This document shows positions 48,527 to 53,284 of a DNA stretch of 64,000 bases, piece by piece (the first letter of the stretch is position 1; each line of letters begins with the position of its first letter). The translations under genes were made by a program, and so were the position numbers. The DNA comes from Microthyrium microscopicum. Its lineage: Eukaryota. The DNA is taken from the NCBI GenBank assembly GCA_010405405.1, contig MU004236.1, positions 1,928,070 to 1,992,069 of the forward strand. Reading direction: 5' to 3'. The notes under the pieces are model-generated. The model had not been told where the DNA came from, ran no database searches, and saw only the letters and a program-made list of their open reading frames with translations.

Positions 48527-48843
48527 GGCTCTGTCTTTGATGAGCTCGATTCTTTTGTTGATGGAAAATGATGGACTTGCAAGAGCGAGGATACGAGAGG
48601 AGGAAAGGATCAAGGAGGGTTCGCAGCAGGCAGCGACGGCTTGATGGTCGACGGCAACATCGAACCACCATGTCAGGTCATCAAAATCTCTCGAATCTCA
48701 TCTTCACTTCTCTCTCCTATACTTGGATGTGATCCATACACTTATTATTCCGAGCAAATAGTACTAACCTATCTAGCAACCGATGCCTGGCCTTCCATCC
48801 ACCACCCTCGCGCCCAGTCTCTGGCCATTGCCTCCGTATAGCT

Positions 48844-51675
48844 ATGTCATCTGAGTCTCTCAAGATCCGTCATCGTAGCGTTGCAGCTCGATCATCATTC
48901 GAAAATGAGCCGGCTCTATCTCTTTCTTTTGACTCTAGCCCGCCCTCCGCCAGGCATAGCCTGGACTCTGTCCCAACTCCATCAAGCAATCACATTCGGG
49001 ACGACAAAGCATACTTGAGCCTTCACAGCCGTCATGTCTACCTTCCCATCGGCCAGAAGAACTTTCAAACAAAGGTTTATCGCGTGTTCAGTGAAAGCAT
49101 TTTCGATCCACTCCGCGGAACACTTACCACAATTCCGGTGAATCCTAACAATCGTACGAAGGCAATACTCTGTGATCAACTAGTCAAACCTATTCCACAA
49201 TTTGACGGCCAGTCTGGGGACACTACTCCGTCTGGAGAGTCATCTTCATCCTCTCGATCATCCATTTTCAAACAGAGGATATCACATAAACCACAAACAG
49301 TCAAACATCACGAGCGTGTTGAGCTGAGGTCCCCATCCAATGCCACATTCGCTACTCCACCAGTTGAGTTAGAGGATCCAACGCCATCAGCACAAGCATC
49401 ACCGGCCATCAATGCTTTCCCGTTCCCGAGCACAGGAGAACTACCCAGCCCACTGACGCCCTTCTCTACACGCCTTTCAAGCTCACCTCTTCGTCCAAGC
49501 CAAAGACATACGCCTCGATCGTCCAGCTCACGTCTTTCCACACCCACGCGGACACCAGACCGTTTCATTCCACTTCGGCCAATTAGGAGCGCGAGGGATA
49601 GCTATGAAATCAGTAGGTCTCCGGAAAGACTCACTGACCAGGAGAAAATTGTTCGCTCCGTGGAAGTCGCTCCTGATCCCTTCAGTCGGAGATTGCGTGC
49701 AAATGCTGCTCGTCTAGTATCGCGAATCAGGGGAACTCCTTCCCATCCTATCAATCTTGGATCTCGAGGTTCCAACAGCGTAGTCACGCTTCGCAGAAAC
49801 TCTACTGGATCTGCTGCCCGAACTTTTAGCCCCGGTGCCATATAGAATGTTGGCGGCATGAACGCAGCATCAAGTGACTCAGTGAATAGCGTTTCAGATG
49901 GCAGAGGAGGCTACATGACAAGTGGTAGCAATGCTCCCTTGTATTCAGCCAATTTCTTTGCTTCAACAGACCCTGCTACTGAACGCGACATGCACGAGCG
50001 AAGGCTTGCTCTAGCGCTGGATATCGATCCCTCCACTCGTTTGTTCAGTCCCTCATCTCCCTCGTCCGGCAGTGGATCGCTTGATAATAGCCCAGAGCAA
50101 GGGCTTGGTGCATCCGGAAAGCTTGTTTGGAAGAACAACGAATGGAACAGAGAAGGATCAATTACATGTAAGTTGTGCCCTTCGAGCGATAATTCTCTGA
50201 CTAATCAGATGACAGCACCTCTACGAGAAGAGAAGAAAAAGAAAGCGGTACCAATTATACCTTTTAGATAAGTTTCTTCGATGTTTTTGAGACTTTTACT
50301 GACCTTGTCTACAGTGCTTAATGCACCGGCTCTGAGAGATGATTTCTATTGCTCCGTATTGGCCTATTCTCATTCAGCAAAGGTTCTGGCAGTCGGTCTC
50401 GGTAACACGGTTTATTTTTGGAACGAATCCGGAGGTGTTGAAAGTCCACCAAATCTCAATCCACCAAGCAGTTCCTACGTTTCTTGTCTATCCTTCTCAT
50501 CACGAGATGGAGGAAAGGGTATCCTAGCCGCTGGTCGATCCAATGGTCATGTCGTTCTACATAGTCCTCATGAGAGTCAAACTCGCTTCGACATACATCA
50601 GCCTAGTCCGATCTGCTGTGTAGCATTTCGACCAACCTCAAGAAGCAAAGACTCCATGCGGGACCGTTATATTTCGGTCAAGACAGAAGACCTTCTGATT
50701 GGTGATGAGGCGGGGCACGTCTACTTTTACTCTGTTGAGTGGCCAACAGAGACTGAGCGAGACTTGTTCGACTTTCGCGGCTGTGTGACTTTGATAGTTC
50801 GTCTGACGATGCACACTCAGCAAATTTGTGGCATTGCATGGGCCCCGGATGGAGACACCTTTGCTACCGGTGGTAACGATAATCTATGTCATCTTTGCGA
50901 TACTCGACGAGTCATAGCTGAAGGCAAACCTGATACAGCTCATCTCACTTCATCATCCTTCCCCTCATTCAACGTGGACAGGCAAGTCGATCTTACCTTA
51001 CCACACTTCAACATCTCCGCCCTATTTGCCCGCCACTGCTTCACTGTAGCAGCGGCTGTAAAGGCCATTGCCTTTTGTCCCTGGCAACGCGGGCTCCTAG
51101 CCATTAGTGGAGGCTCCAACGACCGACGCATTCATTTTTTCCACACTCTCTCTGGCGCAACTCTTGCCACTGTAGATTGTCATGCTCAAGTCACCAGTCT
51201 TGTCTGGAGTACCTCGCGGCGCGAAATCGCTGCTACTTTTGGCTTTGCCCAGCCCGAGCATCCTTACCGCATTGCCGTTTTCAAATGGCCCAGCTGCGAA
51301 ATCGTTGTCAAGATTCCTTGGTTCGATGAGCACCGTGCCCTCTTTGCCATTCCTTACCCAGGCGGTCCTAATATCTCCCGGTCCCATGAAGACTCGGAGC
51401 TAGATGCACGTGGACGCGATCGCCGTGGGCGTGCACGCTCTCGCTCAGGACTCTTTCGTTCGCGCGATTGGCGACGTGAGGGTGGCTTATGGTGGAGCCG
51501 CACTGAGGAGGAAGGCTGCTTGGTCGTAGCCACCAGTGATTGCAGCATCAAATTCCACGAAGTCTGGGCTGAGGAGCGCAGGGCTACGGGAGAGCGAGGG
51601 GGGATGTTGGGTGGAAGTGATATCTTGGATCTGATTCACGGAATTGAGCGAGATGATGGTGAGATTATCCGCTAA
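48844..51675 (+). CDS. AMA1: Cdc20/Fizzy-family APC/C activator, meiosis-specific Ama1-like; in-frame TAG at 49843-49845 and a putative AT-AC intron
   Basis: C-box TPDRFIP, IPFRVLNAPALRDDFY, WD40 (TGGNDN, AVKAIAFCPW, GGSNDRRI), C-terminal IR tail. Exons 48844-50167, 50216-50267, 50313-51675. The three ORF-track pieces share one frame. Confidence 0.85.
50268..50312 (+). other. Putative non-canonical AT-AC intron (45 nt)
   Basis: AG|ATAAGT ... TACTGAC ... CTAC|A. Removal restores F-R-V-L-N-A-P. Confidence 0.65.
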
Positions 51676-53284
51676 AAACTGAGAAGGCTACGCCGTGCTC
51701 ACAGACCAAATTGCAAGTCTTTGTTCACTGCTCGGGGATCAGTGAGCAACCTTTCTTCCACATTTCCTAGTCGTCCGTTTTGCGAAGCTTGGGTTGTTTA
51801 TTCCTGTTAGGGTTGAATTCATTGCTACGATACGCTGGCGGTGTGCTCCTATTCTTGCTCTTCCCTAAGGCATATGAGTCCTAGAAATCGATCACTGTCC
51901 TATTCTTTGCTTGTCATGCTTCTTCTGTCATTGGAGTCTAAACTTGAGGCTGAAACTAGTCTTAGTCGTGCAATATATCTCTTGCAATAGATGCGATCCT
52001 ATCGTGTAATTTCATCTACCAGCCTCCCTGACAACTTATGAGATGCGTAAAAATATTTGCTTCCGGATTTGGAAGAAATAAGCGAAAAGATCTGGCCAGC
52101 GTATTCGGGATCATGCTCTATACGATCTCACAGGATCGCTTACAATGCTGTCATCTTTTCCAGCCTCAAATCTGGTGCCAGTAGTACAGTGGCAATGAAT
52201 GGTACTCCTTGGATTTCATGTTACACGTCTAGATTCCTTAGGCCTGCTAGTCTTGGCTTGACTTGGCTGTCAGTGATATGAAGTAAGATTCCAAGTCTTC
52301 CTGGTAGGAGAAGGAGTAGCTCAGTACCAAGGGCGTGAGATTGGGGCCATTATCTCAATCATCGGATTCTGAGTCCATCGTGAAGTCTTTCCTGCCAGGC
52401 ACTTGTTCACAACTAGTACCCATGGTCCTTGTCGTTTTCTCTGCGTTGAATAAGTCTCTACCAGCTCACATACACTGGATCGACCTATTTAGCTCGTATG
52501 GGTTACATCCTCTCGAAAGGGATATTTTGTGGACCGCTGTCTGTATCCTGCTTGACATCGACTTGACGGCCAGCCCGAAAATATATTTTGCAATGCTCAT
52601 ATTGATCAGTGATCACACTCTAGAACTTGATTCATCGTGGAAAAGATATCCCTGTCCACAAGCACACGTGGAAACTCAACGTGAATGGTCTATTTTTAGA
52701 TTCTCACCTACCTCTCTACCAAAGTACTCAGCCTCCAAAATGCAACGCCTTTTCCATTTCAAATCAAGAAATAAACAGAAATTAGCCCCAAAATGACCTA
52801 TTCGGGGGCAATTAACATAAATTGCGACTCAGCCCAATTTCCAAGACTTTACTCTACCGACATCGCCATCCGGCGGACTGATCTCCGAGCATCAGCCAAT
52901 TTCAGCTGTCTCTCGTGGCTGGTGAGCTTACCGTCTTTTCTCACCATAATGTATGAGCTCTCATCGTGACTGGATGAGCCCTGGCAGCATGGCATTCCCC
53001 ATTTGGCTCTGGCGGATTAGAGCACGATGGCTAGTGAGACGAGGCTGCGCTCAACGCCGCGCTCATTTTAGACGAAATTGATGTTACGGTAATATCATAG
53101 TGAAGATGTACTTCGAGAAACATGAATACACATTCTGTATATAGGATCAGTATGGCCTTGGACTAAATATTTCATTCTCATCATCACAACCAACAACTAC
53201 TACTTCAACAACAGCATTCCAATCACTTTCACTTCCAACTTCTTAACTTACCACCACCAAACAACTTCCAACAACACTATCAAA

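What the first reader, a model, noticed from the sequence alone, without database searches (positions are those of the whole stretch)
50268..50312. AT-AC intron as a second lock on AMA1
Seen: donor ATAAGT (a U2 GTAAGT with A at +1), branch site TACTGAC, acceptor AC ten nt after the branch A. Of the options I tried, only this excision restores the Fizzy-family motif P-F-R-V-L-[DN]-A-P. Using the adjacent AG frameshifts to a stop, and retention hits an in-frame TAA. The donor is not the U12 ATATCC consensus, and Pezizomycotina are thought to lack the minor spliceosome, so this would be a rare U2-type AT-AC intron. Known parallel: yeast AMA1 has Mer1-dependent meiotic splicing. Inference: splicing-regulated activation layered on editing.
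Basis: partly seen in the sequence, partly recalled or inferred. Interest (0 to 1): 0.75.

Follow-up and report, generated by a model that had tools for sequence, protein, structure and literature searches.

The report
Conserved AT-AC intron in fungal AMA1
A 45-base intron with the rare ends AT...AC is really spliced out of the AMA1 cell-cycle gene of this fungus, and the same odd intron sits at the same spot in the gene of many distantly related fungi, so it is an old, stable exception to the GT...AG rule rather than a one-off switch.

Summary
Window 50268-50312 is a 45-nt intron with donor ATAAGT, branch site TACTGAC and acceptor AC 10 nt after the branch A. One transcript-like contig of run X5 joins 50267 to 50313 exactly as predicted (TTTAG|AGTGCTT) and also removes the upstream GT-AG intron. 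DNA contigs keep both introns. The public gene model P0001 (Microthyrium microscopicum) uses the same junction.

It is not a one-off. Among 80 AMA1 loci from metagenomes plus the window, the intron at this exact position has AT-AC ends in 24 distinct sequences. These fall in Dothideomycetes (including an Alternaria-identical locus), Leotiomycetes and Lecanoromycetes. It is GT-AG in 12, AT-AG in 2, AT-AA in 1 and absent in 16. First and last bases co-vary (A..C 24, G..G 12, G..C 0) while the intron interiors have diverged freely.

None of the 24 has U12-type signals, and Ascomycota are reported to lack the minor spliceosome. It is therefore best read as a U2-type AT-AC intron.

The "second lock" reading is not supported. 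The intron is spliced in the same contig that still carries the unedited in-frame TAG, and no Mer1-type enhancer is present.

Gene predictors often skip the 52-nt micro-exon upstream of the intron.

The parts
48844..49842 (+). 5' part of the AMA1-like coding frame (333 codons from the first ATG), with the C-box DRFIPLR near 49556 and a PDPF motif
   Evidence: Open frame 48733-49845. The motifs align with DRFIP...PDPFS of relatives. Covered without a joint by the X5 contig. No Pfam hit.
49843..49845 (+). In-frame TAG at a conserved tryptophan codon (GAI*NVGG versus GAVWNVGG)
   Evidence: 32 of 32 other loci rows where the motif was found have W/TGG. The TAG is unchanged in the X5 contig and in DNA contigs (no other letters).
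49846..50167 (+). Continuation of exon 1 in the same frame; public model P0001 starts at the ATG at 49858
50168..50215 (+). Intron 1: 48 nt, GT-AG (GTAAGT...CAG), phase 1; open and in frame if retained
   Evidence: Joint 50167>50216 'GT..AG' in the X5 contig. Retention reads through without a stop.
50216..50267 (+). 52-nt micro-exon encoding (S)PLREEKKKKAVPIIPF(R)
   Evidence: Separate piece of the X5 contig. Present in P0001. Micro-exons of 46-58 nt, length 1 mod 3, were predicted in 28 of the 31 AT-AC rows.
50268..50312 (+). The finding: 45-nt AT-AC intron, phase 2
   Evidence: Joint 50267>50313 'skips 45, AT..AC' in the X5 contig. Homologous AT-AC introns in 24 distinct sequences.
50268..50273 (+). 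5' splice site ATAAGT (U2-type consensus with A at +1)
   Evidence: 5' splice site in the 24 AT-AC introns: A24 T24 A24 N G24 T23. Published U2-type AT-AC consensus /ATAAGT (PMC5029451, passage).
50297..50303 (+). Branch-site match TACTGAC; inferred branch A at 50302
   Evidence: The distance from a CTRAY-type motif to the intron end is 10 nt in 16, 11 nt in 4 and 12 nt in 1 of the 24 AT-AC introns; no motif was found in 3. The branch point itself is inferred, not mapped.
50311..50312 (+). 3' splice site AC, followed at once by an unused AG (50313-14)
   Evidence: The acceptor is AC in 24 of 24. L038 and the cut locus L047 have AC|GG, so no adjacent AG is needed.
50313..51675 (+). Last exon: CDC20/Fizzy-type WD40 propeller, ending in the IR tail (...GEIIR) and a TAA stop
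   Evidence: Open frame to 51675. Pfam PF24807 covers residues 123-481 of P0001, E 5.6e-57, 193.7 bits against a cut-off of 200. 100% identical to P0001.

Best explanation
Window 50268-50312 is a genuine spliceosomal intron with AT...AC ends in the AMA1-type APC/C activator gene of Microthyrium microscopicum. It is removed by the major (U2-type) spliceosome.

Inferred mechanism:
- U1 and U6 recognise /AUAAGU through positions +2 to +6.
- The branch forms at the A of UACUGAC.
- In the second step, the intron's first A pairs non-canonically with its last C, in place of the usual G-G contact. The AC 10 nt after the branch is therefore chosen over the AG two bases further on.

The intron is old. 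The same position carries AT-AC in orthologues from Dothideomycetes, Leotiomycetes and Lecanoromycetes, with the first and last bases changing together.

It behaves as an ordinary, efficiently removed intron in the data at hand. It is most likely kept because going back to GT-AG needs two matched changes (a frozen state), not because it acts as a switch.

Shown: excision in RNA, the exact junction, conservation and co-variation of the ends, and absence of U12-type motifs. Inferred: dependence on U2, the A-C contact, the branch point, constitutive splicing, and the reason for persistence.
For: Splicing in RNA:
- One X5 contig joins 50267>50313 (AT..AC) and 50167>50216 (GT..AG) with 0 other letters. 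DNA contigs X1 and X4 are unspliced.
- Only 1 base of overlap at the joint argues against reverse-transcriptase template switching.
- On the other strand the two joints would read GT-AT and CT-AC, so the + strand is the spliced one.

Gene model:
- P0001 reads ...AVPIIPFRVLNAP.
- The Pfam CDC20/Fizzy domain starts at the residue after the junction.

Orthologues (one search gave 80 loci):
- Of 81 rows: AT-AC 31 (24 distinct introns), GT-AG 14 (12 distinct), AT-AG 2, AT-AA 2 (1 distinct), no intron 23 (16 distinct), cut 2, motif not found 7.
- First/last base: A..C 24, G..G 12, A..G 2, A..A 1, G..C 0. Fisher p = 1.2e-7; the rows are related, so this is descriptive only.
- Intron interiors are unalignable while A-T-A-N-G-T and AC are fixed.

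Placement (tree, 100 rows):
- The L031 frame is identical to the Alternaria P0078 cluster.
- L043/45 sit inside Lecanoromycetes (support 99).
- L038, L039 and L048 sit in Leotiomycetes.
- All 8 distinct Sordariomycete-clade loci are GT-AG.

Not U12-type:
- 0 of 24 have ATATCC and 0 of 24 have TCCTTRAY.
- Minor splicing is reported missing in Ascomycota/Pezizomycotina (PMC10639083 and PMC2846911, passages).

Mechanism from the literature:
- An engineered AT-AC intron splices in yeast (PMC5029451, passage citing Parker and Siliciano 1993).
- An A-C contact can replace the G-G contact (PMC11585973, passage).
- The U2-type AT-AC consensus is /ATAAGT (PMC5029451).
Against: - The RNA evidence is a single assembled contig from one run. 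Its RNA nature is the tool's guess, although the two exact intron-sized gaps make cDNA the simple reading.
- Contigs drop minor forms, so retention or exon skipping at lower levels cannot be excluded. The growth stage of the sample is unknown.
- Splicing of the AT-AC intron was not seen in any other species.
- The taxonomic placement of the metagenome loci rests on a quick tree of one protein.
- AT-AG (L033, L040) and AT-AA (L036/37) relatives with intact reading frames do not fit a strict A-C pairing rule. How they are spliced is unknown.
- No genome is held for the window. The absence of U11/U12/U4atac/U6atac genes in this fungus rests on the literature only.
- That a rare state persists in three classes could also mean it is useful, which the frozen-state idea does not explain.
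Confidence: 0.82

Rival explanations
1. Regulated 'second lock': the AT-AC intron is a deliberately poor substrate. It is removed efficiently only in the sexual stage, by a stage-specific factor as with Mer1/Nam8 for yeast AMA1. Functional Ama1 would then need both TAG correction and splicing.
For: - AMA1 of budding yeast is spliced meiosis-specifically through a weak 5' splice site (PMC3082912 and PMC11585973, passages).
- FgAMA1 of Fusarium graminearum carries a premature stop restored by sexual-stage editing (PMC10776026 and PMC4817773, passages).
- The AT-AC state is kept in three classes in a sexual-stage gene.
- Retention gives an immediate TAA.
Against:
- 0 of 24 AT-AC introns hold the Mer1 enhancer motif.
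- The introns are 45-53 nt with no conserved interior, leaving little room for a regulator's site.
- The intron was lost outright in 16 distinct loci and is GT-AG in 12. The AT-AC state is therefore dispensable.
- TAG and AT-AC do not co-occur elsewhere.
Confidence: 0.12
2. The normal product skips the micro-exon. The real intron would be 50168-50314 (GT-AG), giving ...GSITLLNAP..., and the AT-AC junction would be a minor by-product.
For: - The skip is in frame.
- 30 of 60 named gene models of relatives lack or misread the micro-exon. Their junction residue is always L, I, M, V or F, as expected if the AG two bases after the AC is used.
Against: - The X5 contig includes the micro-exon; no skipping contig was laid.
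- The micro-exon encodes the conserved ...VP.IPF(R/K) segment. This segment lies in one continuous reading frame with the WD40 exon (no intron before V-L-D-A-P) in 16 distinct intronless loci.
- The skipping models are predictions that cannot use AT-AC.
Confidence: 0.03
3. U12-type (minor spliceosome) AT-AC intron.
For: - AT-AC ends.
- Short branch-to-3' distance (10 nt).
- Varied 3' ends among relatives with A at +1 (AC, AG, AA), which recalls U12-type flexibility. This last point is recalled, not tested.
Against: - 0 of 24 have the ATATCC 5' splice site or a TCCTTRAY branch site.
- The branch sites are the usual fungal CTRAY type.
- Minor splicing is reported absent from Ascomycota/Pezizomycotina (PMC10639083 and PMC2846911, passages).
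Confidence: 0.02
4. Artefact: an assembly or sequencing error at the intron ends, or a template-switch gap in cDNA.
For: Non-canonical junctions are often artefacts. The DNA runs may be the assembly's own source.
Against: - Identical sequence in the DNA contigs of two runs and in the flanks of the X5 contig.
- Only 1 base of microhomology at the joint.
- The same ends occur at the same codon position in 23 other distinct introns.
Confidence: 0.01

Closest known systems
U2-type ('type II') AT-AC introns of animals (SCN4A/SCN5A and the 15 human, 6 mouse and 3 fly cases listed in PMC1557818)
   Same: - AT...AC ends with an otherwise ordinary U2-type 5' splice site. The published consensus /ATAAGT (PMC5029451) equals the window's donor.
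- Borders are conserved over long evolutionary distances.
- No U12-type motifs.
   Different: - It lies in a fungus whose phylum is reported to lack the minor spliceosome altogether.
- It is very short (45 nt) with a fungal CTRAY branch site 10 nt from the end.
- At the same position relatives show GT-AG, AT-AG, AT-AA or no intron, so the change of state can be followed within one orthologous intron.
- U2 dependence was not tested here.
Engineered /AU...AC/ introns in yeast (Parker and Siliciano 1993, as cited in PMC5029451 and PMC11585973) and the nested RPL30 AT-AC intron of S. cerevisiae
   Same: - They show that a first-base A is rescued by a last-base C in a cell with only the major spliceosome.
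- The natural co-variation found here (A..C 24, G..G 12, G..C 0) is the evolutionary counterpart.
   Different: - The yeast cases are artificial, or account for 1-2% of transcripts and lack the /ATAAGT consensus (PMC5029451).
- Here the AT-AC junction is the form in the only contig assembled, and it is needed for the reading frame of a conserved protein.
Mer1/Nam8-dependent meiotic splicing of S. cerevisiae AMA1
   Same: - Same gene family (meiotic APC/C activator).
[quoted passage not shown]
   Different: - No Mer1 enhancer (0 of 24).
- No evidence of stage-specific removal.
- Homology of the intron position to the yeast intron was not tested.
Premature-stop genes restored by A-to-I editing in Sordariomycetes (PSC33/FgAMA1, PMC10776026)
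   Same: The same gene carries an in-frame TAG, at a conserved tryptophan codon in this window.
   Different: - This is a Dothideomycete.
- Editing was not seen (the contig shows TAG).
- The TAG is a separate feature from the intron.

Membership tests
U2-type (type II) AT-AC intron | Intron begins AT and ends AC | tested here: met
   A 1-base ambiguity (TA..CA) gives the same mRNA.
U2-type (type II) AT-AC intron | Excised from RNA at exactly these ends | tested here: met
   One X5 contig, joint 50267>50313. Single run; its RNA status is the tool's guess.
U2-type (type II) AT-AC intron | 5' splice site fits the U2-type consensus except at +1 (/ATAAGT) | tested here: met
   ATAAGT at 50268-73. 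A-T-A-N-G-T in 24 of 24, with T at +6 in 23. Consensus taken from the PMC5029451 passage.
U2-type (type II) AT-AC intron | Removal depends on the major spliceosome (U1, U2, U4, U6) | not testable with these tools
   Inferred from the reported absence of minor splicing in Ascomycota (PMC10639083, PMC2846911). No genome is held for snRNA scans.
U12-type AT-AC intron | 5' splice site /ATATCCTT | tested here: not met
   0 of 24 AT-AC introns start with ATATCC. The motif is as given in PMC5029451.
U12-type AT-AC intron | Branch site TCCTTRAY close to the 3' end | tested here: not met
   0 of 24. The motif is recalled, not taken from a call.
Mer1-regulated meiotic intron (yeast AMA1 type) | Intronic enhancer AYACCCUY within about 25 nt of the 5' splice site | tested here: not met
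   0 of 24 AT-AC and 0 of 12 GT-AG introns. The motif is from PMC3082912.
Mer1-regulated meiotic intron (yeast AMA1 type) | Splicing restricted to meiotic or sexual cells | tested here: inconclusive
   Spliced in the one RNA-like run. The stage of that sample is unknown and the TAG is unedited in it.
AMA1/Cdh1-type APC/C activator (the host gene) | CDC20/Fizzy WD40 propeller | tested here: inconclusive
   PF24807, E 5.6e-57, 193.7 bits, just under the curated 200. 1379 homologues at E <= 0.001.
AMA1/Cdh1-type APC/C activator (the host gene) | N-terminal C-box (DRFIPxR) and C-terminal IR tail | tested here: met
   DRFIPLR lies in the frame upstream of the TAG and the protein ends ...EIIR. That these motifs define the family is recalled.
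AMA1/Cdh1-type APC/C activator (the host gene) | Orthology to AMA1 rather than CDC20 or CDH1 | tested here: inconclusive
   Relatives are named 'meiosis-specific APC/C activator protein AMA1' by a source. No tree with CDC20 or CDH1 outgroups was made.

The most novel reading that the evidence does not exclude
The AT-AC state of this AMA1 intron goes back to an early ancestor of the filamentous ascomycetes (Leotiomyceta). It has been kept for hundreds of millions of years in a lineage without a minor spliceosome because slow or factor-dependent second-step splicing times Ama1 production in sexual development. This would be a splicing checkpoint parallel to, but mechanistically different from, yeast Mer1 control and Fusarium stop-codon editing. 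The GT-AG, AT-AG and AT-AA relatives would be lineages that relaxed or rewired that control.
Probability: 0.12. Interest if true: 0.8.

Novelty: new member of a known kind. Interest (0 to 1): 0.6.

Why it matters
**Natural evidence for a rare intron class.** U2-type AT-AC introns are very rare: 24 among about 610,000 introns in five animal and plant genomes (PMC1557818). For filamentous fungi they were only hypothesised, for xylanase genes (same paper). This case offers three things:
- RNA-supported excision.
- Conservation over three fungal classes.
- A within-intron series of states (GT-AG, AT-AG, AT-AA, AT-AC, loss). This is natural evidence for the first-base/last-base contact of the second splicing step, and shows how end dinucleotides switch.

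**Annotation.** Half of the named gene models examined (30 of 60) lack or misread the conserved micro-exon. Only 4 of the 22 that I take to be Dothideomycetes have it right. Automated models of this meiotic regulator are therefore often wrong, those of Alternaria included.

**The in-frame TAG.** The transcript contig shows that the mRNA runs across the in-frame TAG with its flanking frames intact. This sharpens the separate question of whether a Dothideomycete edits or reads through that stop.

**Prior reports.** My searches for a prior description (AMA1 + AT-AC; AT-AC + Pezizomycotina; AT-AC + fungi terms) found none in the held library. That library lacks most subscription journals.

Tried and rejected
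- **Genome scan:** The genome search on the window's own genome for U12 snRNA failed because no genome is held. No snRNA scan was possible.
- **Sequencing runs:** The look-up of sequencing runs listed no holder on record as RNA; X5 is 'RNA?' by guess. X6 (organism C, small share) covered only 10 of 30 bins and not the intron, so it says nothing here.
- **Protein atlas:** the look-up for L043 gave only phylum-level taxa and was not used for placement.
- **L015/L059 lineage:** the third homologue search (L015) found no close named relative (best named about 62%). The class of the L015/L059 AT-AC lineage stays open.
- **Second-species RNA support:** I looked for it among database proteins. P0138 (90.6% identical to L038) and P0019 (80% identical to L005) carry the correct junction, but they could come from intronless genomes. 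They are not counted as evidence.
- **A-to-I editing of the first A (to mimic G):** rejected. The last base co-varies to C, the base before the A is G or A rather than the U preferred by fungal editing (PMC11156358, abstract only), and the adjacent AG would then give a frameshift.
- **Antisense GT-AG artefact (the CT-AC problem of PMC7072748):** rejected. The reverse strand would read GT-AT here and CT-AC at intron 1.
- **Pattern misses in my own scripts:** the first pattern missed 17 loci and a looser one recovered 10. 7 remain without the motif, probably because the match starts inside the gene. L015 needed a relaxed micro-exon pattern.
- **Earlier findings of this scan:** three look-ups returned nothing.
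Full report
**What is there.** The window holds a gene of the CDC20/Fizzy family.

- The best database match to its last exon is a 574-aa protein of Microthyrium microscopicum (P0001, 100% identity). This fungus is a Dothideomycete. Relatives are named 'meiosis-specific APC/C activator protein AMA1' by one source.
- Reading the sequence gives one frame from an ATG at 48844. It contains a C-box (DRFIPLR), an in-frame TAG at 49843-45, and a 48-nt GT-AG intron (50168-50215).
- This is followed by a 52-nt micro-exon (50216-50267), the 45-nt stretch of the finding (50268-50312), and a last exon to 51675 that ends ...EIIR.
- Pfam's CDC20/Fizzy WD40 domain starts at the residue right after the disputed junction (E 5.6e-57; 193.7 bits, just under the cut-off of 200).

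- The donor is ATAAGT at 50268. TACTGAC lies at 50297-50303. The AC at 50311-12 is 10 nt after the presumed branch A, and an AG follows directly.
- Translating each splice variant from the window confirms three claims. Only AT-AC excision gives ...AVPIIPFRVLNAPALRDD. Using the adjacent AG gives ...PFSA-stop. Retention gives ...PFR-stop.
- One correction: skipping the micro-exon with GT 50168 and AG 50314 is in frame (...GSITLLNAP).
- The cut can be drawn one base to the right (TA..CA) with the same mRNA.

**RNA evidence.**

- Of seven public runs that hold the region, four were laid on 48600-51900.
- Run X5, which the tool guesses to be RNA, gave a single 3968-nt contig (mean word depth 98.5). 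It covers 48600-50167, 50216-50267 and 50313-51900, with two joints, 'skips 48, GT..AG' and 'skips 45, AT..AC', and no other differences.
- DNA runs X1 and X4 cover the stretch without joints. They may be the source of the assembly.
- The junction is therefore exactly the predicted TTTAG|AGTGCTT. On the opposite strand the two joints would read GT-AT and CT-AC, so the + strand is the spliced one. One base of overlap at the joint is too little for template switching.
- Limits: one run, an assembled contig, unknown growth stage, and contigs drop minor forms.
- The public model P0001 has the same junction.

**Relatives.**

- A scan of metagenome contigs with an alignment of 12 homologues matched 321 stretches. 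Of these, 172 encode relatives and the best 80 were kept.
- I located the V-L-D-A-P start of the WD40 exon and the P-F-(R/K) end of the micro-exon in each locus, then classed the intron between them, allowing for equivalent cut positions.
- Of 81 rows (80 loci plus the window):

| State at this position | Rows | Distinct |
|---|---|---|
| AT-AC | 31 | 24 intron sequences |
| GT-AG | 14 | 12 |
| AT-AG | 2 | 2 |
| AT-AA | 2 | 1 |
| No intron | 23 | 16 reading frames |
| Cut by the contig end | 2 | 2 |
| Motif not found | 7 | 7 |

- The 24 AT-AC introns are 45-53 nt long and their interiors cannot be aligned. All begin A-T-A-N-G-T (T at +6 in 23) and end AC.
- A CTRAY-type motif lies 10 nt (16), 11 nt (4) or 12 nt (1) from the end. 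No motif was found in 3.
- First and last bases co-vary: A..C 24, G..G 12, A..G 2, A..A 1, G..C 0 (Fisher p = 1.2e-7). The rows are related, so this is descriptive.
- L038 and the cut locus L047 have AC|GG, so use of the AC does not rely on a neighbouring AG.
- The upstream micro-exon is 46-58 nt, always 1 mod 3. It was predicted in 28 of the 31 AT-AC rows.

**Where in the fungal tree.** Two quick maximum-likelihood trees of the WD40 part were built with named proteins as markers (LG+G4, SH-aLRT support only).

- AT-AC loci fall in Dothideomycetes. Every locus of the Pleosporales clade is AT-AC, and L031 is identical in this part to the Alternaria cluster P0078.
- They also fall in Leotiomycetes: L038, L039 and L048. 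The relatives of L048 are named Cadophora, Botrytis, Erysiphe and others.
- They also fall in Lecanoromycetes: L043/45 group with Caloplaca and Letrouitia, support 99.
- One further lineage (L015, L059) has no close named relative.
- All 8 distinct loci of the Sordariomycete clade are GT-AG.
- Mycosphaerellales-like loci lack the intron. One of them (L069) has a GT-AG intron shifted by two bases.
- Within one tight Leotiomycete group the states are GT-AG (L051/55), AT-AG (L033 and L040; L040 is 97% identical to Stipitochalara longipes) and AT-AA (L036/37). All have intact frames.
- On the gene tree at least 4 switches between A-first and G-first are needed. The tree is unrooted, so gain and loss cannot be told apart.

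**What kind of intron.**

- None of the 24 has the U12-type 5' splice site ATATCC or a TCCTTRAY branch site.
- Two surveys report no minor introns, and loss of the minor snRNAs, in Ascomycota including Pezizomycotina (PMC10639083 and PMC2846911, passages read).
- I could not scan this genome, because none is held.
- The donor ATAAGT equals the 'very strong /ATAAGT consensus' of known U2-type AT-AC introns (PMC5029451, passage).
- An engineered AT-AC intron splices in yeast (same passage, citing Parker and Siliciano 1993).
- In the exon-ligation step the first and last intron bases pair (G-G), and an A-C pair can take their place (PMC11585973, passage).
- The natural co-variation found here fits that mechanism. 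It also explains why the AC, not the AG two bases on, is used when the first base is A.
- U2-type AT-AC introns are known but very rare: 15 human, 6 mouse and 3 fly cases. For filamentous fungi they were only hypothesised, in xylanase genes (PMC1557818, passages).

**The 'second lock' idea.**

- The yeast parallel is real. AMA1 there needs Mer1 and Nam8, a weak 5' splice site and an AYACCCUY enhancer (PMC3082912, passages).
- Fusarium graminearum AMA1 has a premature stop restored by sexual-stage editing (PMC10776026 and PMC4817773, passages).
- No enhancer motif occurs in 0 of 24 AT-AC or 0 of 12 GT-AG introns.
- The intron has been lost or is GT-AG in many lineages.
- The TAG is private to this fungus: the aligned codon is W in 32 of 32 other rows where my pattern found the motif, and 48 rows had no match.
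- I therefore rate regulated retention at about 0.12. I rate a stable, ordinarily spliced, 'frozen' AT-AC state as the best reading. Leaving that state needs two matched changes, although the AT-AG and AT-AA relatives show that intermediates can exist.

**Practical consequence.**

- Of 60 named gene models examined, 29 have the correct P-F-(R/K)-(V/I)|L-(D/N)-A-P junction. One has no motif.
- The other 30 lack or misread the micro-exon. Their junction residue is always L, I, M, V or F, which is what an xTN codon gives if the predictor uses the AG two bases beyond the AC.
- Two models (Trichodelitschia, Trypethelium) read 'RYVS' into the intron, as expected from AG|ATACGT.
- Among the 22 models I take to be Dothideomycetes (class assignment mostly recalled), only 4 are right: Microthyrium, and three from lineages whose related loci in this set are mostly intronless.
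- The two Alternaria models closest to AT-AC loci are both wrong upstream of the junction.

**Novelty and verdict.**

- The kind (U2-type AT-AC) is known. This is a new, RNA-supported and deeply conserved member in fungi, with an unusual natural series of end states.
- Searches of the held library for AMA1 with AT-AC, AT-AC with Pezizomycotina and AT-AC with fungal terms found no description of it. Most subscription journals are not in that library, and the supplements of the cited papers were not opened.
- The junction itself is already implicit in the public gene model P0001.
- Interest 0.6: a solid and fairly surprising case for splicing evolution and annotation, but not a new mechanism. 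The regulatory reading that made it exciting is not supported.

Noticed in passing
window 49843-49845: In-frame TAG at a tryptophan codon that is TGG in 32 of 32 other loci rows where the motif was found. The C-box lies upstream and the WD40 domain downstream in the same frame, and one transcript contig spans both with the TAG unedited. This is a candidate for A-to-I restoration, as in Fusarium FgAMA1, but in a Dothideomycete. Alternatively the gene may be inactivated, or translated from the ATG at 49858.
   Followed up: partly
window 50168-50215: Intron 1 (48 nt, GT-AG) is a multiple of three with no in-frame stop. Its retention would insert 16 residues (CKLCPSSDNSLTNQMTA) without breaking the frame. 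It is spliced in the X5 contig.
   Followed up: partly
L033, L040, L036/L037 (homologous intron): Close Leotiomycete relatives have AT-AG or AT-AA ends at this intron, with intact downstream frames. Their nearest neighbours L051/L055 are GT-AG. How these are spliced is unknown. They may be intermediates in switching of the end bases.
   Followed up: partly
L069 (homologous intron): A GT-AG intron shifted two bases downstream relative to the AT-AC position (CGAG|GTATGT...GCAG|TA). This looks like a conversion that adopted the AG lying just beyond the old AC.
   Followed up: no
Named protein models P0010, P0014, P0017, P0018, P0020, P0025, P0075, P0077, P0078 and others: Public gene models of AMA1 in many Dothideomycetes, some Leotiomycetes (Stipitochalara, Rutstroemia, Botrytis) and some Lecanoromycetes omit or misread the conserved micro-exon. 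In the lineages where matching DNA loci were seen (the Alternaria and Stipitochalara relatives) the intron has non-canonical ends (AT-AC and AT-AG) that predictors cannot use; for the others this cause is inferred.
   Followed up: partly
window 50313-51675 versus relatives: The window's protein sits on a long branch (0.6 against a median of 0.2). It has changes at otherwise near-invariant sites (LNAP for LDAP, ISGG for IGGG, LHSP for LWSP). Together with the TAG, this may mean relaxed constraint on the gene in this fungus.
   Followed up: no
P0002, L001/L002 (closest relatives of the window gene): The nearest relatives (70% and about 63% identical) have no intron at either micro-exon border and have TGG at the tryptophan codon. 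For L001/L002 the absence of both introns was read from the DNA; for P0002 it is inferred from its continuous 678-aa protein model, as its DNA was not seen. Intron loss at this site is frequent (16 distinct intronless loci).
   Followed up: partly
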